Shown here: in pieces, positions 8,536 through 24,755 of the stretch | Position numbering within the stretch: position 1 is the stretch's first letter | Layout of the letters: every line of letters starts with the position of its first letter | DNA from: Candidatus Limnocylindria bacterium | GTDB lineage: Bacteria; Verrucomicrobiota; Verrucomicrobiia; Limisphaerales; SIBH01 | Length of the DNA: 24,755 nt | Reading direction: 5' to 3' | Assembly (NCBI GenBank): GCA_035489355.1 | Contig: DATHKK010000173.1 | Span: 1 to 24,755, forward strand | Made by a program: the position numbers and the translations under genes | The notes under the pieces: model-generated | What the model was told of the DNA's origin: nothing | The model's input: only the letters and a program-made list of their open reading frames with translations | The model's database searches: none

Positions 8536-9425
8536 TCAAAGCAAATCCTGATACGCCAGCCAGAGCGCGCGGAAGTAGCGCATGACGCGCACCGGATCGG
8601 TGCTGGGAGGAATTTCGGCGAGACAATAGCCGGCGAACTGAATGTCATTCAGCCGCGCGAACAGTTTGCGAAAGGGGTAGTCCTCAATGGACAAGTCGCG
8701 CAGGTGGACGGAGACAATCTCGTTTTTCACGAGATCGAAATTGTGATCGAAGCCCGTGCCGTCGAGGTCCGTTGGATTGAATTCCAGCACACACCGACAC
8801 TCGGATGGTCCGCGATCTCGATGATGCGCTTGATGTTCGGCAGGAGCTGCGTGCCGGCGCCGTGGACTTCGACGTGAATGACCTGCCCGTGCTCTTTCGC
8901 GAAGCCGCCCAATTCGCGCAGGGAACGGCCGATTTGCTCCAGCGTTTTCTCGACCGGCACTTCCTTCGGCAAACCGTTGGGTCGCACCTTCACTCCCCTG
9001 GCGCCCACGTCCTACGCGAGGACGATGTATTCCTTCGTCGCCTCAATGTCCTGGCGCAGCTTCGGCTGGTCCGGCGTGTGAAAATCAAACGCGCTGCCGA
9101 GTCCCATCAACTCGACCTTCGAATCGGCGAACCGCTTCCGCACCTCGGCGCGCTCCTCCTTGCCCAGGGAAACCTCCACGCCGTGCTTGTGGCTCGTGCG
9201 CAACTCGACGCCCTGGAAACCCGTCCCCTCGCAATTCCTGATGATCGTCGGCACGTCCCAGTCCTGCGCGAGATTGTAAGTGACCGTGCCCAGCTTCATA
9301 CGCGGTGCTCGCACGAGAAAACTTTTCTGGCCCGCCGCCTCCGCCGCAAAACTCTCGCGTGTCAGAGCCAGAGCGGCTCCGGTGAAGGCGGCGGCCTTGA
9401 GAAAAGATCGTCGCGTGGATTTCAT
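8536..9425 (-). pseudogene. Tat-exported sugar phosphate isomerase/epimerase (xylose isomerase-like TIM barrel, AP endonuclease family 2), interrupted twice
   Basis: Three ORF-track pieces join into one protein: MKSTRRSFLK.., LGTVTYNLAQDWD, GFQGVELRT, YIVLA-TAG(9012-9014)-DVGARGVKVRPN in the same frame, VEVHG, VCWNS then a 1-nt loss at about 8777-8779 (TGG AAT TC- AAT CCA) into NPTDL..SVHLRD..GYCLAEIP. Confidence 0.85.
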
Positions 9426-9570
9426 GCGCCGATGAGAGCACTCACCGACATGAGTTGTCGAAGCGATTCAGGGCCGCAAAAGTGCCTCCTAATCACATCT
9501 GACACTCACTATTACTCTCTCAATCATGCCCATCTCTTGTGGAATGAATTCGTGACCAAACGATTAAACT

Positions 9571-9598
9571 TTGTCGCCTGTCAAACTGCGCCCATAAT
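9571..9598 (+). promoter_or_regulatory. Possible sigma70-type promoter for vsr
   Basis: TTGTCG-16 nt-CATAAT, ending 12 nt before ATG 9611. Confidence 0.3.
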
Positions 9599-9610
9599 CT
9601 CCGGTTTTGA

Positions 9611-10066
9611 ATGGCTGACGTTTTCACCAAAGCAGAACGCTCGCGGTGCATGTCCAGTATCCGTAGTCGTGGGAACAAAGACACGGAGCTGAAACTCATC
9701 GCCATATTCCGGGCACACGGCATTAAGGGATGGCGGCGAAACCAGCGATTGCACGGCAAACCTGACTTTGTGTTTAGGAAACAACGCCTCGCGGTTTTCG
9801 TTGATGGTTGCTTCTGGCATGGATGCAACCGCCACCTGCGAATGCCTAAGAGCAATCAGATTTATTGGCAAAAGAAGATCGGTCGAAACGTCAGCAGAGA
9901 CCGACGCAACAATAAGACCCTCAAAAGTCTTGGTTGGCGAGTGATCCGAGTTTGGCAGCACGACTTGAAGTTCCCCGATCGCGTCGTCACTAGAATCGCA
10001 AAAGTGATTCTAGTGACGACGGAAGCGTTGCCAACTTCCTCAAAGCAGTGCAAAACAACCGCGTGA
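9611..10066 (+). CDS. vsr: Very short patch repair endonuclease
   Basis: MADVFTKAERSRCMSSIRSRGNKDTELKL, GKPDFVF, AVFVDGCFWHGC, YWQKKIGRNVSRD, LGWRVIRVWQH: the canonical Vsr motif set. Confidence 0.95.
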   Translation: MADVFTKAERSRCMSSIRSRGNKDTELKLIAIFRAHGIKGWRRNQRLHGKPDFVFRKQRLAVFVDGCFWHGCNRHLRMPKSNQIYWQKKIGRNVSRDRRNNKTLKSLGWRVIRVWQHDLKFPDRVVTRIAKVILVTTEALPTSSKQCKTTA

Positions 10067-10257: not shown

Positions 10258-11020
10258 ATGCTTCTCGACCCCTCCCAAATCCCAACACGGAGGAAACTGA
10301 TTTTGGCGGGACTATTTCTCGCGAAATACGATTCCCTCGCGTTGAAGAAGTTGGGCTTTGACAGCTTTGTTGAGGCCTTCAACGTCATTGGGTACGCCCT
10401 CGGTGGCAAGCCGATGGCGATCAAAAACTACAGGGACGAATTTGATCCTCTATTCCCAAACCGGAGAAAGGGATGGCACAAGCGGTCGAGGCGCGATTAC
10501 TGCCTAGACGTTATGGAAGAATACCGGACGCTCGATCTGGAAACCTTCACAGCACTCATCAAGGCCTTTGGAAGATATGACGACAATCTCGCGAGCGAGA
10601 GAAAGCGAACTAGAGCCAAGGACGGAGGCGCTTTGTTTGCGCAGCGGCTTGTGACCGGCTTGGCCGCTGAGCGCTACTTTGAAGCCGTTTTCCCGAAGTT
10701 GGTCGAGTTCAGCGGATTCATGCACGAGAACACCACGCGTCTCGGCTGCGGTTACGATTTTCGGCTTCAAACGACGGCTGAGCCGGACTTTCTCGCCGTG
10801 GAAGTTAAAGGGATCAAAGAAAGTCGAGGTGGCGTATCCCTGACACCCAAAGGAGTACGACGTGGCATCAAAACTGGGGAATCGGTTCTTTCTATTTGTC
10901 GTGAAAAACTTCCGCGATTCACCCGTTCATGAGATTTTTCAGAATCCCTTGCGCAGCAAACTCCGCTTTTCCAAAAGAGAACGAGTAATTGTGGACACGT
11001 CATGGTTGACGACGGTTTAA
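10258..11020 (+). pseudogene. DUF3883 (NO VEIN C-terminal, PD-(D/E)xK-like) domain protein with +1 frameshift
   Basis: GCGYDF...LAVEVKG nuclease motif. Removing one A from cccAAAggag (10849-10851) gives SLTPKEYDVASKLGNRFFLFVVKNFRDSPVHEIFQNPL...WLTTV-TAA(11018-11020), a typical DUF3883 C-terminus. N-terminal helical domain KNYRDEFDPLFPNRRKGWHKR. Confidence 0.8.
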
Positions 11021-12438: not shown

Positions 12439-14265
12439 TCACTGCGCGCCCGTGACGGGCAAACTCGCTACAGGCGGCGATGACAATACGGGCGGTGGTT
12501 GCAGACGGATTGGCAACACAGTTCGCATCGCCCGCGCGCGGAATTCCGAATGCAACTTCCGCCGCGACCACACCACGAATACGACATCCTTGATGAGATA
12601 AAGGACCGTCGTCAGCACTGCGGAGAGCAGCGGGAACCACATGAAGAATTGCGGCGACGCGCCCACTCCTCCCTTCATCATCATCGGCATCAGGAGCAGC
12701 GGAACCATCAATCCGGCGGCAAAGGTCACTCCGAACCACGGAATAATCTGCACGAACACCATCGTTTTCAACGTGGCCACATTGGTGTTCTTTGAGTTCA
12801 GTCCCATCCACATTCCGAACCAGCACAGGGCTAAAAGGTTTGCGAACATTGTGAGAGCTGCCGTGATCGCAGTAACAATTGGCATCCATTTCTCCATTCG
12901 AAACATGCCGCCAATGACTGCGGTCGTCCTGCCGGTCCACGTCGTTGACGTAACTACGGTCGTGTTCGTGATCGCGATCGTCCCGCTGTTCGTGGTTGGT
13001 GCGACCGCCGGAACTGCGGCAGCGGCGGCTGCGAATTGCTTGAATGTCATTTGCTGCGCCAACACCGTGCCCACCATCTGCGCCACCAGACACACGGCCA
13101 GCGGTACGCCGAACATCTTCAGCAATGCGCGCCATTGGCCTTGCACGATCTCCTTCACGGTCAACGGTGTGACCAGCAATAACTCGATCAATCCGCTGCG
13201 TTGTGCTTCGACGAATAACCGGCCGGCTTGGGAAGCGATGCCCAAATACAACAGCAGACTCAACGCGCCCGCGGCGTAGCCCCACCCAAGCCAAACCATC
13301 GGCTGGCTGGCTGTGAACATCGCGACGAGCACTCCTGCCATCAGGATCGTTACGATCCAAAGGACCGCCGCCTGCCAGCGCTCGCGACACGCCAGCCATA
13401 AGAATGGATTTACACCGATCCATTTCGCGCGCAGCCGCGCACGCCGTCGAACACCGCTGAACTTCCACCAGCGCTCATAGCGTCCTCGCCTCCGCGAAAT
13501 CTTTGTCGCCTTCTCCTGCCACGTGCGCGGGAGCAGGACGCAACTCAGCACCAGGAGCGTCCACGCGAGAAGCTGATTTATCAGGAGTGCTTTCCAGAAA
13601 AGTGTTCGCCCGAATCCGGTTGACGACACAAACACGTAAACCGGGCTCGTCGTGCTCAGGACAGGTTGGAAAGCGCCAGGCGAGAGCGCCGCATCCATTG
13701 CCGGACCGGCGCCCGCCAACAGCACCAGCAGAACCAACGTTCCGGCCATCGCCTTCTGCGGATCGCGGCTGATGGCGGACACGAACAAGCCCGCCGCCAA
13801 CGAAAGAAAGAGCGCATTGACGAGCGCGAGCGATGTCTTCCAAAACTCCGCGCCGGTCACTCCGCCCATCAGCAAGGTGATGGCGAGAATCGGCAACACG
13901 GCGAAGATGGCGAAAAAACTTCGCAGCGACGTGGCCATCAACTTCCCCAGCACCACGTCATAACCGCGCAGATCGGTCAGGAACAAAAAGCCGAGCGTGC
14001 CCTCGCGCTTTTCCTCGCTCAAACAATCTGATGTGAAAAACAAGCCGGCGGACAACGCCGCGCCCAAACTCAGCCATGTGAGCACGCCAAAAAGGATTTC
14101 ACCCAACGTCGTCGTCGCGAGGGCAAAGCTCCCGACAGCGGACAGGATGAGGAACCCGGTCGCGATCATCAACGCGACGATCGCCGCGACGATGCGTATC
14201 CAGAACGTGCTGCGTTTCCGCGAGGCCACGCGCAACTCTCGCCCAACGATAGGCAGGAATATCAC
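12439..14265 (-). CDS. ABC-2-type transporter permease-like polytopic membrane protein
   Basis: GTG start; FLPIVGRELRVASRK; DCLSEEKREGTLGFLFLTDL..VVLGK; second copy RSGLIELLLVTPLT..IVQGQW; many hydrophobic helices. Confidence 0.8.
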   Translation of the reverse strand: MIFLPIVGRELRVASRKRSTFWIRIVAAIVALMIATGFLILSAVGSFALATTTLGEILFGVLTWLSLGAALSAGLFFTSDCLSEEKREGTLGFLFLTDLRGYDVVLGKLMATSLRSFFAIFAVLPILAITLLMGGVTGAEFWKTSLALVNALFLSLAAGLFVSAISRDPQKAMAGTLVLLVLLAGAGPAMDAALSPGAFQPVLSTTSPVYVFVSSTGFGRTLFWKALLINQLLAWTLLVLSCVLLPRTWQEKATKISRRRGRYERWWKFSGVRRRARLRAKWIGVNPFLWLACRERWQAAVLWIVTILMAGVLVAMFTASQPMVWLGWGYAAGALSLLLYLGIASQAGRLFVEAQRSGLIELLLVTPLTVKEIVQGQWRALLKMFGVPLAVCLVAQMVGTVLAQQMTFKQFAAAAAAVPAVAPTTNSGTIAITNTTVVTSTTWTGRTTAVIGGMFRMEKWMPIVTAITAALTMFANLLALCWFGMWMGLNSKNTNVATLKTMVFVQIIPWFGVTFAAGLMVPLLLMPMMMKGGVGASPQFFMWFPLLSAVLTTVLYLIKDVVFVVWSRRKLHSEFRARAMRTVLPIRLQPPPVLSSPPVASLPVTGAQ

Positions 14266-14419: not shown

Positions 14420-16441
14420 TTAAGGAAGGCTTAACGCCATGACGGCCCAGCTTGACGCTGCGGCGGAGATCCAGGAATCGCGTCCGTGCGGGAAGCCGCT
14501 GTTCATCGTCGGCTGGAAAGGGAAAGCGCGGCGGCGCACATACCACGTGCCGTCTTCGAGTTGATGGGCGAGGAGGAAGCGCACGCCACGGTCAACGGCC
14601 GGATGTGAACTCTGCATTCCTGCGCCGATGCGCACCGCATACACCGCCTGGCCCGTCGCGTAAGCGTCGCTCTTCGTGCTGGGCAATTGTGACCAACCAT
14701 CATCCTGGTGTTGCTCGGCAATCAATGCTTTGGCGAGCGGTTGGAGTTTGCGCGCAGGTTCACCGGCCCACGCGAGACCAAGGAGTTGATAGATGCGGCC
14801 TTCGTTGTTCTGAGGTTTCGCGCTCCACAACCACTGTTTGGCGCGCTCGACTCGTTTGGCGAACTCCGCTTTTCGTCCCGGCAGTGGATAGCGTTGCAAC
14901 GCATGCACGGCCAGCGCAGTGGCGCCAATGTCGCCCGTCTGAATCGGCGGGCGCGGCAGATTGTTGAACCACTGACCGTCCTCGCCCTGGATCGCAGACA
15001 AGTGATGCACCCACGAGTCGATAGCTTCATCTGGCGTCAGGTCTTCCGCGGCGCATCCGAACAGCTCGTAGCCTTTGGTGTAAACCGCGTCGGGATGAAA
15101 GAGGGGCTGCCAATCCACTTCGGTGTTCTTGAAATCACCCGCGCGCACCATGGCGATGAGTTGCTGCTCGGCCTCGCGATCGATGTTCACGTTTTGTTTC
15201 TTCGCGAATCCAATCGCCGCCATCGGCAACAATTGTTGGTGGCAGGAAATGCAGTCCTGACGGCTGTCATGCGAAACGAACGCGCGCTTGGACTTGATCG
15301 AAGTTTCCTGGAGTGGCGGCACGGCTTGGCTAATCGCAGCCCGCAGCGTGGCAGCATCCAGCGGTTCAGGAAGACGGCGCGCGGCCGGTGTCTTGATGGG
15401 CACGCGGATGGGCGTGGCATTCGTCGCGCCAGCGGCGGACAACATTGTGAGAATGGGAGTTTCGCCGCGGCTGCGCGCGAGCATGAGCGGCGTCTGCGCT
15501 ACGGTCAGAAGAGCGTCCACGTTCTCACCGCCGCCTAGATTTGGATTGGCCTTGTGGTCGAGCAACAGTTTCACCAGCGCGGCGTCGCGTTCTTCAGTCG
15601 AAGCAGCCCAGTGCAACGGCGTGTAGCCGTCCATTGGTCCAGCTTGATCCACGCGCGCCCCACGGGCGAGCAACACGCGGGCGGCCTCGGTGCGATCGGC
15701 CCAAGCTGCTTGCGCCAGCGCGGTGCCGAGTCCGCCTATGGCATTCACGTCTGCGCCGGCATCGAGCAACAACTGCAACATCGCCACGTCTCCGCGGTAC
15801 GCCGCCCACATTAGCGCGGTGCGGCCTCCGCCGAAGATGAAGCCGGGTTGATCGCCGGTGGGTTGGGAATTGACGTTCGCGCCGTGCTTGAGCAGGAGGC
15901 GCGCGGACTTCTCGTCGCCACCGGCGGCTGCGGCCATCAATGCTGTGGCGCCAAAATGGTTTGTGGCCTTGGCATCTGCGCCGCGCGCGAGCAGCAGTTC
16001 CACCGCGCGATGAGAATTGGCGACACGCGCGGCGAGCAGCAAAGCCGTGTTGCCGAATGCGGAACGCGCGTTGACGTCCGCGCCCTGTTTCGTGAGAAAC
16101 CGGACTTTTTCATAATCGAACGCCGCGCGCATCAAGGCCGTTGCGCCGGCCGTGTTGACGGCATTTACTTCAGCGCCCTGTTCGAGCAGCAACCGTACAC
16201 AGGAAATATTTCCGTACACAGCAGCGTGCATGAGCGGAGTGTTGCCCGTGGCGTCACGCGCCTTGGCCGAGGCTCCGTGATCCAGCGCGTCACGGAGTTG
16301 GCGCACATCGCCGTTGCGCAGGACGGTCAGGAATTCGGGACTCAAGGCAGGCGGCTCGACCGCTGCGGCCGAACTCGAAAGCAGGCAGCAGGCGGAACAA
16401 ACGATAATTAGAAAACGGAGTGGAACTGGTTGCATAGCCAT
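14420..16441 (-). CDS. Secreted ankyrin-repeat protein with CxxCH motif and C-terminal prenyltransferase/squalene cyclase-like (QW-repeat) domain
   Basis: Signal-like N-terminus from ATG 16441. Eight ankyrin repeats (GNTPLMHAA, GATALMRAA, GNTALLLAA, GATALMAAA, GRTALMWAA, LGTALAQAA, GYTPLHWAA, AQTPLMLA). QDCISCHQQ at 15239-15253. QGEDGQW, QHQDDGW, QLEDGTW repeats. Confidence 0.88.
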   Translation of the reverse strand: MAMQPVPLRFLIIVCSACCLLSSSAAAVEPPALSPEFLTVLRNGDVRQLRDALDHGASAKARDATGNTPLMHAAVYGNISCVRLLLEQGAEVNAVNTAGATALMRAAFDYEKVRFLTKQGADVNARSAFGNTALLLAARVANSHRAVELLLARGADAKATNHFGATALMAAAAGGDEKSARLLLKHGANVNSQPTGDQPGFIFGGGRTALMWAAYRGDVAMLQLLLDAGADVNAIGGLGTALAQAAWADRTEAARVLLARGARVDQAGPMDGYTPLHWAASTEERDAALVKLLLDHKANPNLGGGENVDALLTVAQTPLMLARSRGETPILTMLSAAGATNATPIRVPIKTPAARRLPEPLDAATLRAAISQAVPPLQETSIKSKRAFVSHDSRQDCISCHQQLLPMAAIGFAKKQNVNIDREAEQQLIAMVRAGDFKNTEVDWQPLFHPDAVYTKGYELFGCAAEDLTPDEAIDSWVHHLSAIQGEDGQWFNNLPRPPIQTGDIGATALAVHALQRYPLPGRKAEFAKRVERAKQWLWSAKPQNNEGRIYQLLGLAWAGEPARKLQPLAKALIAEQHQDDGWSQLPSTKSDAYATGQAVYAVRIGAGMQSSHPAVDRGVRFLLAHQLEDGTWYVRRRAFPFQPTMNSGFPHGRDSWISAAASSWAVMALSLP

Positions 16442-16562
16442 AATTCTTGAGTTGTCGATCGGACGATTCACTTCGCGGCGAAGGTGAGTAGCTGAACGAG
16501 AGACTTCGGGCAAGCCAGAGTAAGGCACGTATTCAATCGCCTTCCGTTGGGCCGAATGGTAA

Positions 16563-18238: not shown

Positions 18239-19051
18239 ATGACCACACACCACATAACCCGGCAGATCGTTTTGTCTCTGTTTGCTTTCACAGCCACTTC
18301 GATGTTTGGGGCGGACCAGAAGTCTCTCGGCTACAAAGATACGCCGTTGATTCCCGGCACGCAGTGGCACGTTCACGATGGAGATCGTCCGCAGCCGCGC
18401 GTCCTTACTCCTGGAAAACATTTCAGCGAAATGGCGGCCGCGCCTTCCGACGCGATGGTGCTGTTCGATGGCACAGATTTCTCGAAGTGGAAAGGCGCGA
18501 AGGGTGACGTGCAATGGAAGATCGAAGATGGCTACATGGAGACGACCAAGACCGGCGTCATTCGCACGAAGGATGAATTCGGCGATTTTCAACTTCACCT
18601 TGAATTCGCGACGCCTTCGAAAGTCGTCGGCGATGGCCAGGGACGTGGCAATAACGGCGTGAACATTTTTGGGCGTTACGAAATTCAGGTGCTCGATTCC
18701 TACAACAACCCGACCTACCCCGATGGCCAGGCCAGCGCGATTTACGGCCAGTCGCCTCCGTTGGTGAACGCCAGCCGTCCGCCCGGCGAATGGCAGACCT
18801 ACGACATTGTTTTCGAAGCACCGCACTGGGACGCCGAGGGCAAATTGATCAAGAAGGCGTCAGCGACAGTGCTCCACAATGGTGTGCTGGTCCACAACCG
18901 GCGAGAGATTCTCGGCAACACCCAGCATCGGGCAATGCCCGCCTACGGCAAGCCGCAGGAAAAAGGATTCATCGAACTTTACGAGCACGGGAACCCGGTG
19001 CGCTTCCGCAACATCTGGATTCGCCCGCTCGGTGAATACGACAAACCGTAA
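18239..19051 (+). CDS. DUF1080 (3-keto-disaccharide hydrolase family) protein
   Basis: APSDAMVLFDGTD, FGDFQLHLEF, GNNGV, YEIQVLDS, ASAIYG, GEWQTYDIVF, ATVLHNGVLVH, EHGNPVRFRNIWIRPL. Start placed at ATG 18239 before a signal-like segment. Confidence 0.92.
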   Translation: MTTHHITRQIVLSLFAFTATSMFGADQKSLGYKDTPLIPGTQWHVHDGDRPQPRVLTPGKHFSEMAAAPSDAMVLFDGTDFSKWKGAKGDVQWKIEDGYMETTKTGVIRTKDEFGDFQLHLEFATPSKVVGDGQGRGNNGVNIFGRYEIQVLDSYNNPTYPDGQASAIYGQSPPLVNASRPPGEWQTYDIVFEAPHWDAEGKLIKKASATVLHNGVLVHNRREILGNTQHRAMPAYGKPQEKGFIELYEHGNPVRFRNIWIRPLGEYDKP

Positions 19052-19083
19052 TCGCGCGAACAACAATTCATCCGCGCACGCGT

Positions 19084-19809
19084 ATGAACCGCCTTTTGCT
19101 CAGCCTGATCTTTCTCTCGTTATGCGCGGGATTTTCTTCCGCGGCGGAGCAGAAACTGAAGGTGCTCGTCATCACGGGCGGTCATGGATTTGTGACGAAC
19201 TCCTTCTTCCGCGTGTTCCAGGACAATCCGGAGATCACTTTCACTAACGTCATCCAGGCGAAGAGTTCTTCGACGGCGTACGATCGAGAAGACCTCCTGA
19301 GCTACGACTGCATTGTTCTCTACGACATGGTGCAGAACATCAGCGAGACGCAGAAGGCGAAGTTCCTCTCACTCTTCGACAAAGGTGTCGGACTGGTCGT
19401 GACGCATCATGCGCTGGTGTCGTATCAGGCGTGGCCGGAATTTGAGCGGATCGTCGGCGGCACTTACGCAGAGCCGCAGGACAAGCGCGGCAAGGTGACG
19501 CCCGAGCTGGGCTGGGAACACGATATTGATTTCGAAGTGCAGGTGATCGCCAGGGACCATCCCATCACGGCGGGCGTGAAGGATTTTGCCATCAACGATG
19601 AGATCTATTGGGGCTTTCGGCTGCGACCCGATTCCATTCCGCTGATCACGACGACGCACCCGAAGAGCGGGAAACCGCTGGCGTGGTATCGAACCGAAAA
19701 ACATTCCCGCGTCGTCTATCTGCAACTCGGCCACGGTCCTTCCGCTTTCGAGAACCCCAACTATCGAAAGCTCCTGGCGCAAAGCATTCGTTGGGCGGCG
19801 AAGCACTGA
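19084..19809 (+). CDS. ThuA-like (class I glutamine amidotransferase-like fold) domain protein, secreted
   Basis: KVLVITGGHGF, YDCIVLY, GVGLVVTHHA, DHPITAGV..F.INDEIY, PLAWYR, RVVYLQLGHGPSAFENPNYRKLL; signal peptide. Confidence 0.9.
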   Translation: MNRLLLSLIFLSLCAGFSSAAEQKLKVLVITGGHGFVTNSFFRVFQDNPEITFTNVIQAKSSSTAYDREDLLSYDCIVLYDMVQNISETQKAKFLSLFDKGVGLVVTHHALVSYQAWPEFERIVGGTYAEPQDKRGKVTPELGWEHDIDFEVQVIARDHPITAGVKDFAINDEIYWGFRLRPDSIPLITTTHPKSGKPLAWYRTEKHSRVVYLQLGHGPSAFENPNYRKLLAQSIRWAAKH

Positions 19810-19839
19810 CGTTCAGTCCACTCCCGGTCGCGAGTTGGC

Positions 19840-22054
19840 TCAGCGATCAAGTTTGAACTCAAAACTCCAATTGTGGCCGTCCTGCCCGGTCAAGGCCAGG
19901 CCATCCACCGCCAGCGTGAGACTGTCCCGGCCTCCTTTGAACCAAGGCTCAGTGGCGGTTCGCGCGATGCCGTAGGTGTTGGCGCGCATGTCGAACGCGA
20001 GGCTCAAGGTGCCGGCGTCGGCGAATACTTTTCCAGAGACGTTGCGAAAGAGCGTCGGCGATTGAATCGATTCAAGACGGGTTTCGATGGTGCCCTTGGC
20101 GGAATCCATAGAGAGCACGCGCAGGCGAAGGGAACTGCGGAGCGCCTTCGTTGGATCGACGGCCGTGCCGTCGATCACACCGCCCGGACGGATGGCCGAG
20201 TTGAACGCCTGCCGCCAGGAGGCGGTGGCTCGCAGCCGACGCGCCGCTTCACCTGATGAAAGAGGCTCTAAGCGGAAGGTTTGATTTCGATAGCTGCCGA
20301 TGAGCGCGCCGTTCTCCATCCGTAATGGCAGCGCGCGGAACTGCGGGGCCAATGACTTGGCAGGAATTCCGGGCGGAGTGGCGTCGCGAACTTCCGCGAG
20401 GCGCAGCGGCCAGTTCGCTTCGCGGTGGCGATTGCCGATGAGCGGGCCGGTGAGCTTGAGTTGCCACGCTTCGCGCTCGGGATCTTGCAGCACGACCTCA
20501 ATCGACTTCGTCGCGTCTGCCGCGCGCATCACTCGCAGCAGGATTTGTTGGGTGCTGGCTTCGGATAGTTTTACGGAGCCTGAATAATACGCATCAGGGA
20601 CCATCGCACCGAGCATGGCGAAATAGTCCGGGCTGGCGGCACGCTTGACCCGCTCCGTATCGGCATCGGGAACTCGCGTGAACTGGATCGCGCTGGCGCC
20701 GAGTTGGCCGGAGACCCGGTCTGAGTCGATCACGAGTTCAAGGTTAACCATTTTCGGATCGTCCAGCACCGGCCCGCCATTGCGCGTCATCTGGTCCGAG
20801 CGGGAAACGAGAGAGAGTTCGAAACGCTCGCGGGCGACTTCGAATTTCCATTCTCCCTCAAACAATCGTCCATCACCCCAGCCGCCGTCGTTGTGGATAA
20901 TCGCTTTGAGCGGATGCGTCCCGGAACCGCCGACGGCCTCCGTGACTTCGAGGTAAATGGGTTTCTTTTCATTGGCCGTCCGCCCCGCCATCGTGCCGGT
21001 GAAAATGGCTCCGGGACGGAAGAACGGCACCAGCAATTCTTCCTGTCTCTTGTGCTGGGCCATCACCTCCGCCACGTACGCGCCGCGCGCCTGTTCAAGC
21101 TGCGCGAGAATCTTTGGCTGCGCGTCCACGAGGGAGCGCAGCCGCGCACGGTCGTCATCGCGGCTAACGTCGAACACTTCGCCGGCGAAATTCTCGCGAG
21201 GCCGCTGGTCTGCCGGCCACGACGGCAAGCTGATGGAGCGGACGGACACATCCCAAGTTCCGCTGCTTTTGGACGCCGTAAAATTCGCCATTCCATTGAA
21301 AGTATTCCCTGGCGGCGTGCCGACCTTCACCACTGAAACCTTCGTCACGTCCAAAGGCGGCGACGTCAACCCGGCCAGTTCGAGAAGGCGGCGCGCCTCT
21401 TTGGCACTCGTCAGTTCGGCGATCCGTTTGTTCACCGTCGCATCGATTTTTAGTTCCTCCTGAAGATAGCGCTCCGTGGGCACGCTCACGTACAAAGGCC
21501 GATCCAGTTTTGCGATCAGGGTCGCGTAAACGTCGGCGATGCCCCCATGCTGCGAACTCGTCTGGAAGGAAACGGACGAAAGCGAAAGGCCGCGCTTTCC
21601 GAGTTCGCGCGCCAGGCTCTGCTCGACGGCTGTTTTAGAAATCGAGGGCGGACGACGCTGCCACCAGATCGTCGCAGCGGTGGCGGCGAGCGCCACGATG
21701 ACGGCCGTGACCAGGCTCAACCGACGGAAGCCGCTTGCGCGCGCCAGCTTGTTCCGTGGCCTGTTTCTGCGCCTGGAGCTGGAGAAGGCGCGCGCGCAAG
21801 GCCGCTCCGAGTTCCTGATCGCGGCGACTCACAGCCAGATTCTTCCGCTCTTCGGCCAATTGAGAGAGCGCCCATTCGCAACGCTCGGCGGCAGATTTCT
21901 TCGCCACGGCGTCGGGAAGGTTGATCGGGTTGCTCACCGAATCGCTGATCTGGGCCTTCTCGATCGCCGAACGAAAACGCCGCCGTGTCGCCTCTGAGTT
22001 GTGCCAGGCAGTCAACTGGCTTCGCAGCGGCAAAGGATCGAAATCGTTTTTCAT
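19840..22054 (-). pseudogene. Single-pass membrane protein (about 737 aa if repaired): N-terminal helical/coiled-coil part, TM helix, three tandem beta-rich repeats; one +1 frameshift
   Basis: ORF 21635..22060 (ATG 22054) and ORF 19840..21720 join by removing one base at 21726-21727, giving QAGARKRLRRLSLVTAVIVALAATAATIWWQRR (basic run plus TM helix). The downstream part alone is a 626-codon open frame. The frameshift may be real or a sequence error. Confidence 0.7.
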
Positions 22055-22066
22055 AAACAAATTGGC

Positions 22067-22474
22067 TCAGCCGCCCCCGGCGGAATTGGCCTGGGCAATA
22101 TGGTTTCGGGCATCGCTGGCAAGTTGATCGGCTTGCTGCGCCTGGCTGCTGGCGGCGCTGGCTTCGCTAAAAGCGGATTGCGCGCTGGCACGGGCGTCGG
22201 CGCAATTCTGGCCGGCCTGTGCTGATTCACTCGCGGCGATGCGATGCTGCTCGTCGGCGCGGAGCACATCGGTCGCGGCGGAATTCAGATCGCGGTGCTG
22301 GGCCGCGATGGCGGTCAGGATTGTTCGTTCAGACGCAGCGCGCGGTTGGAGAAATCGTTGTTCGGCGGCGCGCGCGTTGGCGTCGCGCCAGACCAGGCGG
22401 GCATCCGCCACGACTTCCTGCAGCGCGCGGGATTGCCGCTGAAGTGACCAGAGAATGTCGTCGCGATCACTCAT
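22067..22474 (-). CDS. WXG100-like small helical protein (WxD variant) with Ala/Gln-rich C-terminal extension
   Basis: 135 aa, helical composition, ARLVWRDANARAAEQRFLQP. ATGA overlap with the upstream gene and co-oriented with an FtsK-like gene. Confidence 0.7.
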   Translation of the reverse strand: MSDRDDILWSLQRQSRALQEVVADARLVWRDANARAAEQRFLQPRAASERTILTAIAAQHRDLNSAATDVLRADEQHRIAASESAQAGQNCADARASAQSAFSEASAASSQAQQADQLASDARNHIAQANSAGGG

Positions 22475-23313
22475 GGCAGCGGCTCCGCTCGGTTGAGATG
22501 TTGAAGCGTTTCAATGGCTTCCTCGAGTTGCTTGCGTCCGAGATCTTCGTGAATGGCGATTTTCTCCGCCGCGGTGTTCGCAAGGCGCAATTGCGCGTCA
22601 GCCTCGGCGGCGCGGGCGCAGGCAGATTGCGCGGCGGCGGTCATGTCGTCACTGGCGGCTGTCTCGCGATCCACGGCGGCGCGAGCTTGCGTGGCCGACT
22701 GCCGGGAATCCGAGGCGCGGTTTACTGCGCCGTGCGCGCAACTCACCGCAGCGCGCGCGCAACTCTCGCTTTGTGATGCCAGGCTCACCGCTTTTTGGCA
22801 GGCGGCCACGCGTTCCTGCGCGCGTTTCACTTCATTCTGCGCCACGTTGACCTGCTGCTGTGCAATAGCCACAGCCCTCCCCGCCGCCGCCGCCGATGCG
22901 GCCGGGCCGGAACAATCCCGGGCTGGGCCATTGGGATCGTGCGGCGCCGACATGCACGCGCTCAAAGCGTTCGAGGCGCTGTTGTAGCGCTGCTGGCAGG
23001 CCGCCAGATTGTTCATGGCGTTCGCCAGTGCGATCTGCGCGGCCTCCAATCGGTCGCGCGCGGCTTCCAATTCTTTCTTCCAATGAGACAACGCTGAGTG
23101 GGCTTCGAAGGTCGCTGCTTGCGCGTTGCTCAACGACTGATTGCACTGGGCGAGCGCTTGCTGCGCGGTGGCCAGCGCTTGTTGGGAGAGATGCTCGATT
23201 TCCTGGACGTGGCGTTCGTCATCGCGCGCCGTGTCCGCGATCGCAATGGCCAGCTGTCGAGTGCGTTGGGCGCTCTCATCTGAAAGGCGCTGGTCCCGTA
23301 CCGTGTCTTCCAT
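22471..23313 (-). CDS. Ala-rich coiled-coil protein with central Cys-x13-Cys loop (280 aa)
   Basis: From ATG 23313: MEDTVRDQRL... heptad-like A/Q/E/R-rich helices, ALSACMSAPHDPNGPARDCSG, 8 Cys, no signal peptide. The first 74 codons of the ORF-track call 22471..23535 lie in the inverted segment. Confidence 0.78.
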   Translation of the reverse strand: MEDTVRDQRLSDESAQRTRQLAIAIADTARDDERHVQEIEHLSQQALATAQQALAQCNQSLSNAQAATFEAHSALSHWKKELEAARDRLEAAQIALANAMNNLAACQQRYNSASNALSACMSAPHDPNGPARDCSGPAASAAAAGRAVAIAQQQVNVAQNEVKRAQERVAACQKAVSLASQSESCARAAVSCAHGAVNRASDSRQSATQARAAVDRETAASDDMTAAAQSACARAAEADAQLRLANTAAEKIAIHEDLGRKQLEEAIETLQHLNRAEPLP

Positions 23314-23320
23314 GCTCGAC
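23314..23320 (+). repeat. Left 7-bp inverted repeat GCTCGAC
   Basis: Exact reverse complement of GTCGAGC at 23683-23689; sits where coding sense switches strand. Confidence 0.8.
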
Positions 23321-23682
23321 TGGAGAATGCCACCGGTCACGCGGAATGGTATGCGGCGGAACAACCGCGCATCGCGTGGGTCGGTCAGGAATTTAACGTG
23401 CGCGGCTATGCTTCTCTGGTGCTCAAACGCAAACCGTCCGACAACATCGTTTTCGTCGGCAACAATCCCAACGCCCGGCACGGACTGTTGTTGAGCGTGC
23501 TCACCAGCATCGCCCTCAATCTCGACGCGCGGCACACGCAGTTCGCGCTGATTGATCGCACACCCAGAGGCTCACCGTGGGAAAAGGTCGCGCCGACCTG
23601 GAGCGAGCATCTGACTCGCACCGCTGGTGTGATGTGTCGGCTGGCCACCGAGTCCGCGGCAGCGGAGGAATTGTTGCGCGAG
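23321..23682 (+). other. Inverted internal fragment encoding part of a C-terminal FtsK/EccC-like degenerate ATPase domain
   Basis: The + strand frame reads (ARL)ENATGHAEWYAAEQPRIAWVGQEFNVRGYASLVLKRKPSDNIVFVGNNPNARHGLLLSVLTSIALNLDARHTQFALIDRTP...EELLRE with no stop. This is a P-loop-fold-like beta-alpha pattern, opposite in sense to both flanking genes. Confidence 0.75.
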
Positions 23683-24610
23683 GTCGAGCTTCCGCCGCGG
23701 TGTCCCAGTGCAGGAGCAGATAAGTGCCGCCCTCCATGCCGTTGTTGGCGATGCGACGGAGTAATTCTAAGCTGCGAGTGTCGGTGGCGAAGCCGTGGGG
23801 GAAATCAGCAACGACGACAATCCTCAGCTTCTCGCGCCGGCGTTGATTGACCGGTATCTGCTCGAAGGATGTGATCTGGCCACCCAGAGAGTTGCGGCTG
23901 ATGCGCACGAAATTTCGCTCGGCCGCCTCAAGGTCCTGGAACAATTCGGTGTTTTCGATCCGGCCGGGCAGACGATTGGCCCAGCGGAAGGCGTTGCCGC
24001 TGTTGTGCGGATCAACGAAAAGAAACTGCACCTGATTAGGCAGCGCAGCCGCGATGCGCCAGACGAGCGACTGCATCGCGTCGAGGACAGGCTGTCGATG
24101 TTTGGCGTTGCCCGGAAAAACCAGCGTGCGCCTCCGGCCGACGAAGGGAACCATGAACGGAGACGCTGGCCCGCTCGCGCCTTCACCCGCTTGGACACGC
24201 CCGAGGCAAAGCGCGTCGGGCAACGTCACCACTTGCTGTTGTTGCGATGAATTGTAGGCGGCCCATGCCGCTTCGTCCCAACCCGGACGCGAGAGCAACG
24301 GCACGGCGGCGTTGGCAGCGGCGCATGCGCGCTGGGCGGCTTCGCACACCGTGGCCAATTCACCATCAGCCACGCGACTTTCGACGAGCACACGAACCGC
24401 AGTCGAGGCGATGCGTCCTTCGGCTGTCGCTTGGCGAGTCGCGGCATTTTTCACCGCGTCGTCGATGGAGGCCAGCCAGGCGTTAATGCCGCTGGCTTTT
24501 CCGCGCGAACATTGGGCATCGATCTCCGCCTGCGCAGTAGGATCACCGGCACAGGCTCGGACCACCAGCGCCGCAGGTTGGTTTCGATCTGAAGGGGATG
24601 GATTACTCAT
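23516..24610 (-). pseudogene. FtsK/SpoIIIE (EccC/EssC-like) ATPase-family gene, rearranged; first degenerate ATPase domain only in the present orientation
   Basis: LPDALCLG, FMVPF..RTLVF, MQSLVWRIAAALPNQVQFLFVDP..SGNAF, LRIVVVADFPHGF, LRRIANNG..GGTYLLLHWD. This resembles the first pseudo-ATPase domain of WXG100-associated FtsK proteins. No GxxxxGK[ST] motif. The last about 55 codons are antisense read-through of the inverted segment. ATG 24610. Confidence 0.72.
23683..23689 (+). repeat. Right 7-bp inverted repeat GTCGAGC
   Basis: Reads GCT CGA C (A-R-x) on the - strand in the FtsK frame, the same register in which the left copy is read on the + strand. Confidence 0.8.
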
Positions 24611-24755
24611 TTGCAAACCGTCCTGTCGGCGCCGCCCATTCCGTTGAAGTCCATCGACAAGTTCCCGCGCCACGCCGCGGCGAGACGGCGGAAGCAGGGC
24701 TCTCCGAAGAACCGGATGATTGGGATTCCCTGTCGCAAACCGGCGCGGAGAATAC
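24607..24755 (-). CDS. Probable 3' end of an upstream gene, 5'-partial; product unknown
   Basis: One frame (..ILRAGLRQGIPIIRFF...DRTVCK-TGA) ends in an ATGA overlap with ATG 24610. All three frames are open over this stretch, so the frame is uncertain and the FtsK-like ORF could itself extend upstream. Confidence 0.3.
   Translation of the reverse strand, partial: ILRAGLRQGIPIIRFFGEPCFRRLAAAWRGNLSMDFNGMGGADRTVCK

What the first reader, a model, noticed from the sequence alone, without database searches (positions are those of the whole stretch)
19840..24755. Type VII/WXG100-like secretion operon in a probable diderm (Verrucomicrobia-like) genome, with an unfamiliar membrane component
Seen: tightly coupled minus-strand genes (ATGA overlaps at 24607-24610 and 22471-22474; 12-nt gap at 22055-22066) for an FtsK/EccC-like ATPase, a 280-aa Cys-looped coiled coil, a 135-aa WxD helical protein and a single-pass membrane protein. 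The two helical proteins lack signal peptides. Established: WXG100 proteins with an EccC/EssC FtsK-family ATPase define type VII secretion in Actinobacteria and Firmicutes, and related loci in diderm phyla are poorly characterised. Inference: a T7SS-like export or envelope-spanning helical-bundle system in which the repeat membrane protein replaces EssA/EssB/EccB-type parts. More of the operon probably lies beyond 24755.
Basis: partly seen in the sequence, partly recalled or inferred. Interest (0 to 1): 0.75.

Follow-up and report, generated by a model that had tools for sequence, protein, structure and literature searches.

The report
Decayed type VII-like secretion operon
This stretch of a soil Verrucomicrobiota genome is the broken remnant of a rare six-gene relative of the Gram-positive type VII secretion machine: it has lost its motor domain and its small WXG100 proteins, so it matters mainly as a pointer to intact copies in related bacteria.

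Summary
The genes are there, but this copy is a wreck. Six other loci from Limisphaerales/Verrucomicrobiota carry the intact operon. It encodes a 1,008-1,009-aa EccC/EssC-like ATPase without transmembrane helices (three FtsK-like domains, only the middle one with Walker A/B), 90-aa and 95-97-aa WXG100-type proteins, a 317-aa Cys-bearing coiled coil, a 135-aa helix and a 734-746-aa single-pass membrane protein.

In the window only ATPase residues 1-308 remain. A 355-bp piece of the third ATPase domain lies inverted (23333-23687). The active P-loop domain, both WXG100 genes and the first 24 codons of the 317-aa gene (about 2.4 kb) are missing. The membrane gene has a +1 frameshift near 21729. 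Per-run contigs confirm the junctions, and nothing of the operon lies beyond 24755.

The family belongs to the 'mobile' modules of WXG100 plus a middle-active EssC-like ATPase, noted computationally in 2012 and 2024 and never tested. This scan has repeatedly met the membrane-anchored cousin on other DNA, and that cousin is also in this genome.

New here: the anchorless ATPase travels with a dedicated membrane protein (cystatin/NTF2-like domain plus three calycin-like barrels) and a predicted 317/135 helical rod. The 135-aa protein is not a WXG100 hairpin.

The parts
23687..24610 (-). Remnant of the EccC/EssC-like ATPase gene: residues 1-308 only (N-terminal region plus the first, degenerate FtsK-like domain). 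No Walker A/B.
   Evidence: tblastn and blastn against L019 give 79% aa identity over aa 1-308. No Pfam or NCBIfam hit.
23516..23686 (-). Out-of-frame tail of the remnant ORF: 56 codons read antisense through the inverted fragment, ending at stop 23516-23518.
23333..23687 (+). Inverted fragment of the same ATPase gene (aa 716-834 of the third, degenerate domain), now on the opposite strand.
   Evidence: blastn aligns window 23687-23333 to L019 7532-7178 at 82%. tblastn gives 84.6% aa identity in frame -2. The plus-strand translation starts GHAEWY.
23684..23689 (.). Junction 1: ATPase codon 308 joined to the inverted codon 834, with 4-5 nt of microhomology (AGCT).
   Evidence: Spanned by the per-run contigs X1 record 3 and X2 record 9.
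23329..23334 (.). Junction 2: inverted ATPase codon 716-718 joined to nt 75 of the 317-aa gene, with 2-3 nt of microhomology.
   Evidence: Spanned by contigs of X1, X2 and the independent sample X3. A related strain in X4 continues here with intact ATPase sequence (KRPVLEGGAG).
22471..23329 (-). Cys-bearing coiled-coil gene (homologue of the 317-aa protein) lacking its start codon and first 24 codons. The first in-frame ATG at 23313 gives 280 aa.
   Evidence: 70% aa identity to L019 aa 20-317. Alignment A6.
22067..22474 (-). Intact 135-aa helical protein, predicted as one long helix that bundles with the 317-aa protein.
   Evidence: 82% identity to L019. AF2 pLDDT 94.8 with helix 3-132. Complex score 0.71 against best control 0.00.
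21729..22054 (-). 5' part of the membrane-protein gene (cytoplasmic N-terminal region, aa 1-109), now a separate 141-aa ORF that ends at 21635.
   Evidence: tblastn gives frame 2 for aa 1-109. Homologues are 734-746 aa.
21727..21731 (.). +1 frameshift: one extra base relative to L019 and L022.
   Evidence: Alignment. Frame change. X1 and X2 contigs cross it without gaps.
19840..21729 (-). 3' part of the membrane-protein gene: TM helix plus about 600-aa extracytoplasmic domain (open as a 626-aa ORF from TTG 21720).
   Evidence: 70% identity to L019 aa 109-735. Alignment A2. Model of the L019 homologue.

Best explanation
**What it is.** Window 19840-24610 is a recently inactivated copy of a rare six-gene operon that spreads patchily in Limisphaerales (Verrucomicrobiota).

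**Shown: the intact operon (for example L019).** It encodes, in order:
- a 90-aa W-x-D protein;
- a 95-aa WXG100 protein;
- a 317-aa coiled coil with four invariant Cys;
- a 135-aa single-helix protein;
- a 738-aa bitopic membrane protein.

**Shown: the lesions in the window.**
- An inversion plus deletions removed about 2.4 kb: ATPase residues 309-715 and 835-1009, both small WXG100-type genes, and the start of the 317-aa gene.
- Residues 716-834 of the ATPase remain, in inverted orientation.
- A 1-nt insertion splits the membrane gene.

**Inferred: how the intact system works.**
- The ATPase hexamerises on the cytoplasmic helix of the 738-aa protein, which supplies the membrane anchor that the ATPase lacks.
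- The 90/95-aa pair forms a WXG100-type dimer that is both substrate and activator.
- The 317/135 pair forms a rod of about 16-20 nm that is exported to the oxidising periplasm, where its cysteines could form disulfides.
- I put protein export at about 45%. A non-secretory conflict or defence role is the main alternative.

**Consequence for this window.** Without the motor domain and the WXG100 genes, this copy cannot do this.
For: - **Intact synteny in six contexts:**
- **Breakpoints:** at protein level and DNA level.
- **No second copy** of the missing parts of this type in the 73%-complete genome.
- **The junctions are real:**
  - A separate ENA assembly has the same structure and differs at 3 of 4,932 nt.
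  - Single-run contigs X1 and X2 span both junctions and the frameshift.
  - An independent soil sample, X3, spans junction 2.
  - A related strain in X4 runs on with intact ATPase sequence at junction 2 (translation).
- **The decay is recent:** dN/dS of the surviving parts against intact relatives is 0.07-0.32, as between intact copies, and there are no further stops.
- **ATPase type:**
- **WXG100:**, with weaker support.
- **317/135 binding:** model score 0.71 against a best control of 0.00. That mark was reached by 58 of 80 solved complexes and 2 of 110 mismatched pairs.
- **Membrane-protein architecture:**
- **Patchy distribution:** 3 of 401 genomes of the order, each in a different family. 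Operon proteins are 70-82% identical between genomes whose PlsX and YceD are 56-58% identical.
Against: - Coverage is low (about 5x), and only Logan contigs, not raw reads, were available.
- Junction 1 and the frameshift are seen only in runs of the sample that may be the source, and in one other assembly.
- The surviving ORFs are all open and well conserved, so some of them could still be expressed and useful.
- For the mechanism: no secretion has ever been shown for any module of this kind. The ATPase-membrane protein contact was not tested. A single TM helix per subunit is a thin basis for a channel. No outer-membrane component is encoded.
Confidence: 0.8

Rival explanations
1. The rearrangement and the frameshift are assembly or sequencing artefacts, and the organism really carries an intact, working operon.
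For: - The genome is a fragmented MAG (893 contigs, 73% complete).
- Depth is about 5x. Runs X1 and X2 come from the sample that may be the source.
- A contig in X4 shows the uninterrupted ATPase at junction 2, so an intact form exists in at least a close relative.
Against: - Two different assemblies that differ by 3 SNPs share both junctions and the frameshift.
- Single-run contigs of X1 and X2 cross both junctions with no mismatch. X3, from another sample and study, crosses junction 2.
- No repeat in the intact operon would make an assembler invert 355 bp and drop 2.4 kb.
- The intact-looking X4 contig is only 90-95% identical to the window, so it comes from another strain.
Confidence: 0.07
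2. The 355-bp segment is a phase-variable invertible switch, flipping between the 7-bp inverted repeats GCTCGAC (23314-23320) and GTCGAGC (23683-23689). Inversion would turn the ATPase and the downstream genes on and off.
For: The two 7-mers exist, and one sits on junction 1.
Against: - Comparison with intact operons puts junction 2 at 23333/23334, 13 nt from the second 7-mer. The 9 nt between them are native sequence of the 317-aa gene in its present orientation.
- Flipping would restore neither the active P-loop domain nor the WXG100 genes.
- No recombinase gene is nearby.
- No contig shows the opposite orientation (no joints). This is weak evidence, because contigs drop minor forms.
- About five chance 7-bp inverted pairs are expected in 400 bp (my own estimate, not a tool result).
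Confidence: 0.03
3. The operon is damaged, but the surviving genes still work without the ATPase, for instance as an envelope structure. These are the 135-aa helix, the N-terminally shortened coiled coil, and the TM-anchored 626-aa ectodomain translated from TTG 21720.
For: - All surviving frames are open, and their divergence from intact relatives shows purifying selection.
- The ectodomain belongs to a much wider family (161 cluster representatives at E<=0.001). Its distant members sit in loci without any ATPase or WXG100 gene.
- The 626-aa ORF begins just before the TM helix.
Against: - The low dN/dS mostly records time before the lesions (dS is about 1 or more).
- The coiled-coil gene lost its start, its ribosome-binding context and the coupling to upstream genes.
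- Residues 4-30 of the 317-aa protein, part of the predicted interface with the 135-aa helix, are missing or replaced.
- Neither helical protein has a signal peptide, so export would need the lost motor.
Confidence: 0.12
4. Reading of the intact family: it is not a secretion system. It is a cytoplasmic conflict or defence module, like the EssC-like ATPase plus two WXG100 genes inserted in Type III-A CoCoNuT and TerY-P loci.
For: - The ATPase shares the architecture described there: no TM helices, three domains, only the middle one active, one WXG100 with the motif and one without, and a coiled-coil partner (PMC11090510, read).
- PADLOC models SspH and mads_8 hit its P-loop domain.
- Its distribution is patchy and looks mobile.
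Against: - No McrBC/CoCoNuT, vWA or TerY-P genes flank any of the six loci.
- The PADLOC hits cover only the P-loop domain (aa 421-601) and are weaker than the EccCa match over aa 171-601.
- The operon ends with a membrane protein carrying a 600-aa extracytoplasmic domain.
- The coiled coil has four invariant cysteines. Both features point to the envelope.
Confidence: 0.25

Closest known systems
'Mobile' T7SS-like modules of Gram-negative lineages: solo WXG proteins with a distinct YueA/EssC-like ATPase that has three HerA/FtsK domains, only the middle one active. Sources: Zhang et al. 2012, Biol Direct, PMC3482391, Table 1 note 6; and the TM-less version beside Type III-A CoCoNuTs and TerY-P triads in Bell et al. 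2024, eLife, PMC11090510.
   Same: For the intact relatives:
- three FtsK-like domains, with Walker A/B only in the middle one;
- no TM helix in the ATPase;
- two small WXG100-type genes, one matching the family model and one with W-x-D;
- a coiled-coil partner gene;
- patchy distribution;
- occurrence in Verrucomicrobia.
   Different: - This operon stands alone, without CoCoNuT, vWA or TerY-P neighbours.
- The ATPase N-terminus is about 165 aa, not a coiled coil of more than 200 aa.
- The coiled-coil protein has no nuclease domain.
- The operon adds a 135-aa helix and a 738-aa bitopic membrane protein that those descriptions do not mention.
- The window copy has lost the active domain and both WXG genes.
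Membrane-anchored four-gene WXG100 + EssC-like cassette of Verrucomicrobiota and Planctomycetota. It has been met repeatedly in this scan and is present in this genome on contigs C328/C381.
   Same: - EccC-like ATPase: best NCBIfam hits EccCa 1.1e-31 and EccCb 3.1e-26.
- A WXG100 gene above Pfam's threshold about 2.5 kb upstream.
- Small W-x-D helical proteins.
   Different: - That ATPase is about 1,300 aa with two TM helices and is only 26-30% identical to the window's remnant.
- It is common: the ATPase was found in 25 of 41 genomes including G000, and WXG100 above threshold in 24 of 41.
- The window's type was found in 3 of 401 genomes.
- It has no 738-aa partner.
Canonical type VII secretion systems: T7SSa/ESX of Actinomycetota and T7SSb/Ess of Bacillota.
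   Same: The two families common to all T7SS, an EccC/EssC ATPase and WXG100 (PMC10765036, read), are both present in the intact relatives.
   Different: - No TM helices or FHA domains on the ATPase, and one active P-loop domain.
- No EccB/D/E/MycP and no EsaA/EssA/EssB.
- The host is a diderm.
- All matches fall far below NCBIfam's equivalog cut-offs (133.9 bits against 509).
LXG-Lap1-Lap2 pre-secretion complexes of T7SSb (PMC9600955, listed). This is a resemblance in the way it might work, recalled from knowledge and not tested by sequence.
   Same: A long helical effector domain bundled lengthwise with a small helical partner encoded next to it. The predicted 317/135 complex resembles this.
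   Different: - No LXG or Lap family match at E<=1.
- No toxin domain.
- There are conserved cysteines at the hairpin tip.

Membership tests
Type VII secretion system (any subtype) | An EccC/EssC-family FtsK/SpoIIIE ATPase with a functional P-loop domain is encoded in the locus. | tested here: not met
   **Window:** only aa 1-308 and an inverted aa 716-834 remain. Walker A (position 426) and Walker B (531) lie in the deleted part. There is no family hit.

**Intact relatives:** met by best-hit similarity to EccCa, EssC and EccCb and to PDB 4NH0, YukB and EccC5, but below the curated cut-offs.
Type VII secretion system (any subtype) | A WXG100 substrate gene is present in the locus. | tested here: not met
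   **Window:** tblastn with the 90-aa and 95-aa proteins finds nothing in the whole genome. The PF06013 search finds no match on this contig.

**Intact relatives:** the 95-aa protein scores 28.9 bits against a cut-off of 27.3.
Type VII secretion system (any subtype) | The ATPase is anchored in the membrane by its own TM helices and has three nucleotide-binding domains after a DUF domain. | tested here: not met
   The intact L019 and L022 ATPases have no 19-residue window with mean hydropathy of 1.6 or more. They have one Walker A/B pair, flanked by two degenerate domains.
Type VII secretion system (any subtype) | Subtype-specific membrane partners are present (EccB/EccD/EccE/MycP, or EsaA/EssA/EssB). 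| tested here: not met
   No such Pfam or NCBIfam family was found in the operon or its flanks in six loci. The model of the 738-aa protein matches no T7SS component in PDB, AFDB or Atlas searches.
Type VII secretion system (any subtype) | ATPase-dependent export of WXG100 proteins has been demonstrated. | not testable with these tools
   This needs a cultured or heterologous host. The literature states that such Gram-negative loci are not functionally confirmed (PMC10765036).
Mobile solo-WXG + middle-active YueA/EssC-like ATPase module (Zhang 2012; Bell 2024) | [quoted passage not shown] | tested here: met
   **Intact relatives:** a degenerate domain at about 165-310, an active domain with Walker A at 426 and Walker B at 531, and a degenerate domain at about 720-990.

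**Window copy:** the middle domain is deleted, so the window holds a remnant of a member, not a working member.
Mobile solo-WXG + middle-active YueA/EssC-like ATPase module (Zhang 2012; Bell 2024) | Two small WXG100-type proteins, one with the motif and one without. | tested here: inconclusive
   - The 95-aa protein passes Pfam WXG100.
- The 90-aa protein has W-Q-D and no HMM hit.
- By language-model features, its nearest Atlas clusters include WXG100-bearing ones (scores 0.91-0.95). This is a lead only.
- No structure was predicted for it.
Mobile solo-WXG + middle-active YueA/EssC-like ATPase module (Zhang 2012; Bell 2024) | Patchy, mobile-looking distribution in Gram-negative phyla, including Verrucomicrobia. 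| tested here: met
   Found in 3 of 401 genomes of the order, each in a different family, and in none of the 11 other species of the window's genus that were searched. The flanking genes differ at every locus.
WXG100 family (for the 135-aa protein of the window) | A helix-turn-helix hairpin of about 100 aa with a central W-x-G turn. | tested here: not met
   - AF2 gives a single helix over residues 3-132 at pLDDT 94.8, with no turn at W29-R-D.
- No Pfam, NCBIfam or PDB-profile hit.
- hhalign against the 90-aa family gives a probability below 1%, though the alignments are shallow.

The most novel reading that the evidence does not exclude
The intact six-gene family could show how T7SS-like modules whose ATPase lacks a membrane anchor reach the envelope of a two-membrane cell. 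In this reading:
- The 738-aa bitopic protein is the missing anchor and conduit. It has a cytoplasmic helix, one TM helix, a cystatin/NTF2-like domain and three calycin-like barrels.
- The 317/135 heterodimer is a disulfide-stapled rod of about 16-20 nm that is exported into, or spans, the periplasm.

That would be a new architectural class of type VII-like secretion in diderms. The window itself would be a freshly broken example.
Probability: 0.2. Interest if true: 0.75.

Novelty: new variant of a known kind. Interest (0 to 1): 0.42.

Why it matters
Type VII-like gene sets in two-membrane bacteria have been listed by comparative genomics since 2011-2012, but none has been tested. For versions whose ATPase has no membrane anchor, nobody knows how they would touch the membrane. 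This family offers a concrete and testable answer: a dedicated single-pass membrane protein and a predicted two-protein helical rod encoded in the same operon.

The window adds a cautionary example. From sequence alone the operon looked complete, yet it has lost its motor and its substrates through an inversion-deletion and a frameshift. A closely related strain in another soil sample still has the intact junction, so loss of this accessory system can be seen in progress.

Tried and rejected
- **Family scans of the window's own ORFs.** Pfam and NCBIfam gave nothing. The family was recognised only through intact homologues.
- **Search of 40 relatives with the membrane protein.** No match.
- **Profile comparisons among the small proteins.** hhalign of the 90-, 95- and 135-aa families against each other found nothing. 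With 4-6 sequences per alignment this is weak evidence.
- **PDB profile searches.** Nothing for the 90-aa and 135-aa proteins.
- **Atlas feature searches.** Scores for the 738-aa and 317-aa proteins were 0.84 or below and uninformative.
- **Foldseek with the whole 738-aa model.**
  - It gave sliding-clamp and TbpB hits at TM 0.08-0.11, which I read as repeated-domain noise.
  - AFDB and Atlas rows were also below TM 0.5 by the query.
  - Only the domain-level VIA alignment gave usable fold classes, at Z about 7-11. That is only moderately above background for such searches.
- **Pfam on nine distant relatives of the membrane protein.** No domains.
- **Repeats.** No repeats long enough to explain the rearrangement.
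- **Rfam.** Nothing in 19000-24755.
- **Promoter and terminator scan upstream of the ATPase start.** Nothing.
- **PADLOC and PHROGs.** They hit only the generic P-loop domain and coiled coil.
- **dN/dS.** It could not date the decay, because dS is saturated.
- **Horizontal transfer.** It is suggested, not shown. Operon identity of 70-82% overlaps the range of flanking housekeeping genes, 56-81%.
- **Not done.** No phylogeny of the ATPase domain with named reference sequences was built, because reference sequences could not be fetched as proteins.

Full report
**What is in the window.** The window is a whole contig (C173) of a fragmented MAG with 893 contigs, 73% complete. On the minus strand between 19840 and 24610 lie five ORFs:
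- a 364-aa ORF (23516-24610);
- an ORF of 354 aa from GTG 23535, or 280 aa from ATG 23313, ending at 22471;
- a 135-aa ORF (22067-22474);
- a 141-aa ORF (21635-22060);
- a 626-aa ORF (19840-21720) that overlaps the previous one in another frame.

None of them has a significant Pfam or NCBIfam match. The rest of the contig carries typical PVC-group genes: PSD/PSCyt, DUF1552, 3-keto-disaccharide hydrolase and ThuA.

**Intact relatives.** The word-index protein search found homologues of the membrane protein that are 734-746 aa long, not 626. Fetching their contigs showed the same six-gene operon each time:
- FtsK_SpoIIIE ATPase, 1,008-1,009 aa;
- a 90-aa protein;
- a 95-97-aa protein with a Pfam WXG100 hit;
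- a 315-317-aa protein;
- a 134-135-aa protein;
- a 734-746-aa protein.

The genes have 4-nt overlaps between most neighbours. The flanking genes differ at each locus. Two of the records are titled Limisphaerales and Verrucomicrobiota MAGs.

**What happened to the window's copy.** The evidence comes from tblastn with the six L019 proteins and blastn of the DNA.
- Window 24648-23686 equals the first 925 nt of the ATPase gene (aa 1-308, 79% identical).
- Window 23687-23333 equals ATPase nt 2150-2504 (aa 716-834) in the opposite orientation.
- Window 23329-19866 equals the operon from nt 75 of the 317-aa gene to its end.
- Missing are ATPase aa 309-715 and 835-1009, both small genes, and the first 24 codons of the 317-aa gene. 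This is about 2.4 kb in L019 coordinates.
- Both junctions show 2-5 nt of microhomology.
- The membrane gene changes frame near 21729 because of one extra base relative to L019 and L022.
- The missing parts are not elsewhere in the genome.

**Are the lesions real?**
- A separate ENA assembly (L018) has the same structure and differs at 3 of 4,932 positions.
- Logan contigs of single runs X1 and X2 span both junctions and the frameshift without a mismatch. X1 and X2 come from one sample, which may be the source.
- X3, from another sample and study, spans junction 2.
- In X4 a contig that is 90-95% identical leaves the window exactly at junction 2. It continues with letters that translate as KRPVLEGGAG, the ATPase sequence that precedes GHAEWY in intact copies. 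So a close relative still has the uninterrupted gene.
- The surviving parts show dN/dS of 0.07-0.32 against intact copies, like intact copies among themselves, and no other stops. The breakage is therefore recent.

L018 also shows what lies beyond the window's end: about 310 nt of non-coding DNA and a divergent response-regulator gene. The operon starts at 24610, as it does in the relatives.

**The 7-bp inverted repeat.** They exist. However, junction 2 lies 13 nt from the first one, and flipping the segment would restore neither the P-loop nor the lost genes. I therefore reject a phase switch.

**What the intact system is: the ATPase.**
- It has no hydrophobic segment.
- It has one Walker A (position 426) and one Walker B (position 531), in the middle of three FtsK-like domains.
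- It scores EccCa 7.8e-39, EssC 6.8e-31 and EccCb 4e-22, against FtsK 3.5e-7 and HerA 7e-3.
- Its best solved relatives are EccC of Thermomonospora (4NH0, 4.8e-38), YukB and EccC5.

**What the intact system is: the helical proteins.**
- The 95-aa protein passes Pfam's WXG100 cut-off. It weakly matches an ESAT-6-like structure, 4i0x, at E=0.01.
- The 90-aa protein has W-Q-D and is WXG100-like only by language-model features.
- The 135-aa protein models as a single 130-residue helix at pLDDT 94.8.
- Co-folded with the 317-aa protein, the 135-aa protein scores 0.71 against a best control of 0.00. That mark was reached by 58 of 80 solved complexes and 2 of 110 mismatched pairs.
- The contacts run along residues 3-135 of the small protein and residues 4-111 and 198-303 of the large one. 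This leaves the Cys-rich tip (112-197) free. The model supports binding; it does not show it.

**What the intact system is: the 738-aa protein** (AF2, pLDDT 85.7). From N- to C-terminus it has:
- a cytoplasmic helix that runs into the single TM helix;
- a cystatin/NTF2-like domain (137-279, Z about 7-8);
- a long helix;
- three eight-stranded avidin/lipocalin-like barrels (Z about 10, 7 and 10).

Its ectodomain belongs to a Pfam-less family with 161 cluster representatives. The distant members of that family are not linked to ATPases.

**Comparison with what is known.**
- Zhang et al. [quoted passage not shown]
- Bell et al. 2024 describe a version without TM helices, with two WXG100 genes, one lacking the motif, and a coiled-coil partner. 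It sits beside Type III-A CoCoNuTs. They remark that without TM helices 'a different mechanism appears likely' (PMC11090510).
- A 2023 review says such Gram-negative loci are not functionally confirmed (PMC10765036). WXG100 proteins in Verrucomicrobia are credited to Sutcliffe 2011 (PMC6471051).

The intact family fits this kind. Three things are not in those descriptions:
- the stand-alone operon with a dedicated bitopic membrane protein;
- the 135-aa helix;
- the predicted rod.

**Distribution.**
- The type found in the window occurs in 3 of 401 genomes of the order, each in a different family.
- A different, membrane-anchored EccC-like ATPase of about 1,300 aa is common. It was found in 25 of 41 genomes including G000.
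- A WXG100 gene above Pfam's threshold was found in 24 of 41 genomes, usually about 2.5 kb upstream of that ATPase on the same contig.
- The window's own genome has this second type, split over contigs C328 and C381.
- This scan has reported that cassette on other DNA several times.

**Verdict.** The family is type VII-like and sits in a diderm, with an unfamiliar membrane component. The window's copy is a recently decayed remnant that lacks both defining parts. I rate the family a new variant of a known, untested kind. The window itself is of moderate interest.

Noticed in passing
G000 contigs C328 (1-2887) and C381 (5433-7232). Example in a relative: L015:5124-10524.: The window's genome also carries the common verrucomicrobial cassette: a WXG100 gene, a coiled-coil gene of about 195 aa, a 75-aa W-N-D protein and an EccC-like ATPase of about 1,300 aa with two TM helices. 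The ATPase was found in 25 of 41 genomes including G000. WXG100 above Pfam's cut-off was found in 24 of 41, nearly always on the same contig.
   Followed up: partly
Proteins P0012-P0158. Contexts L035 and L036/L037.: The ectodomain of the 738-aa protein belongs to a wide, Pfam-less family of bitopic proteins of about 800-900 aa. There are 161 representatives at 50% clustering, 83 of them at E<=1e-30. In the two contexts examined, members are not next to any ATPase or WXG100 gene. One sits beside response regulators and the other beside a 197-aa gene and sensor kinases.
   Followed up: partly
Run X4 contigs over window 23338-23570.: One soil metagenome holds pieces 100% identical to the window and also pieces 90-95% identical. 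One of the less identical pieces carries the uninterrupted ATPase at junction 2. Broken and intact forms of the operon may therefore coexist in related strains.
   Followed up: partly
Window 23314-23320 and 23683-23689.: There is a 7-bp inverted repeat, GCTCGAC / GTCGAGC. One copy sits on junction 1 and the other lies 13 nt inside the 317-aa gene. It could have guided a template switch, or it could be chance.
   Followed up: partly
Window 12439-14265 (-), 8805-9692 (+), 10258-10932 (+).: Three sizeable ORFs (608, 295 and 224 aa) have no Pfam family at E<=1e-5. The 13-14 kb stretch has unusual skews (AT skew 0.22, GC skew -0.12).
   Followed up: no
Window 14420-16528 (-).: A 702-aa protein made largely of ankyrin repeats (Ank_2 at 2.3e-60), which is uncommon in free-living bacteria.
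   Followed up: no
L021 and L025 (ENA ERZ26871208 nanopore contigs).: Homologous loci in a nanopore assembly are chopped into many short called genes. The 360-aa 'homologue' of the window's ATPase remnant (P0003) is probably such an artefact, so it does not show that a short ATPase form is conserved.
   Followed up: partly
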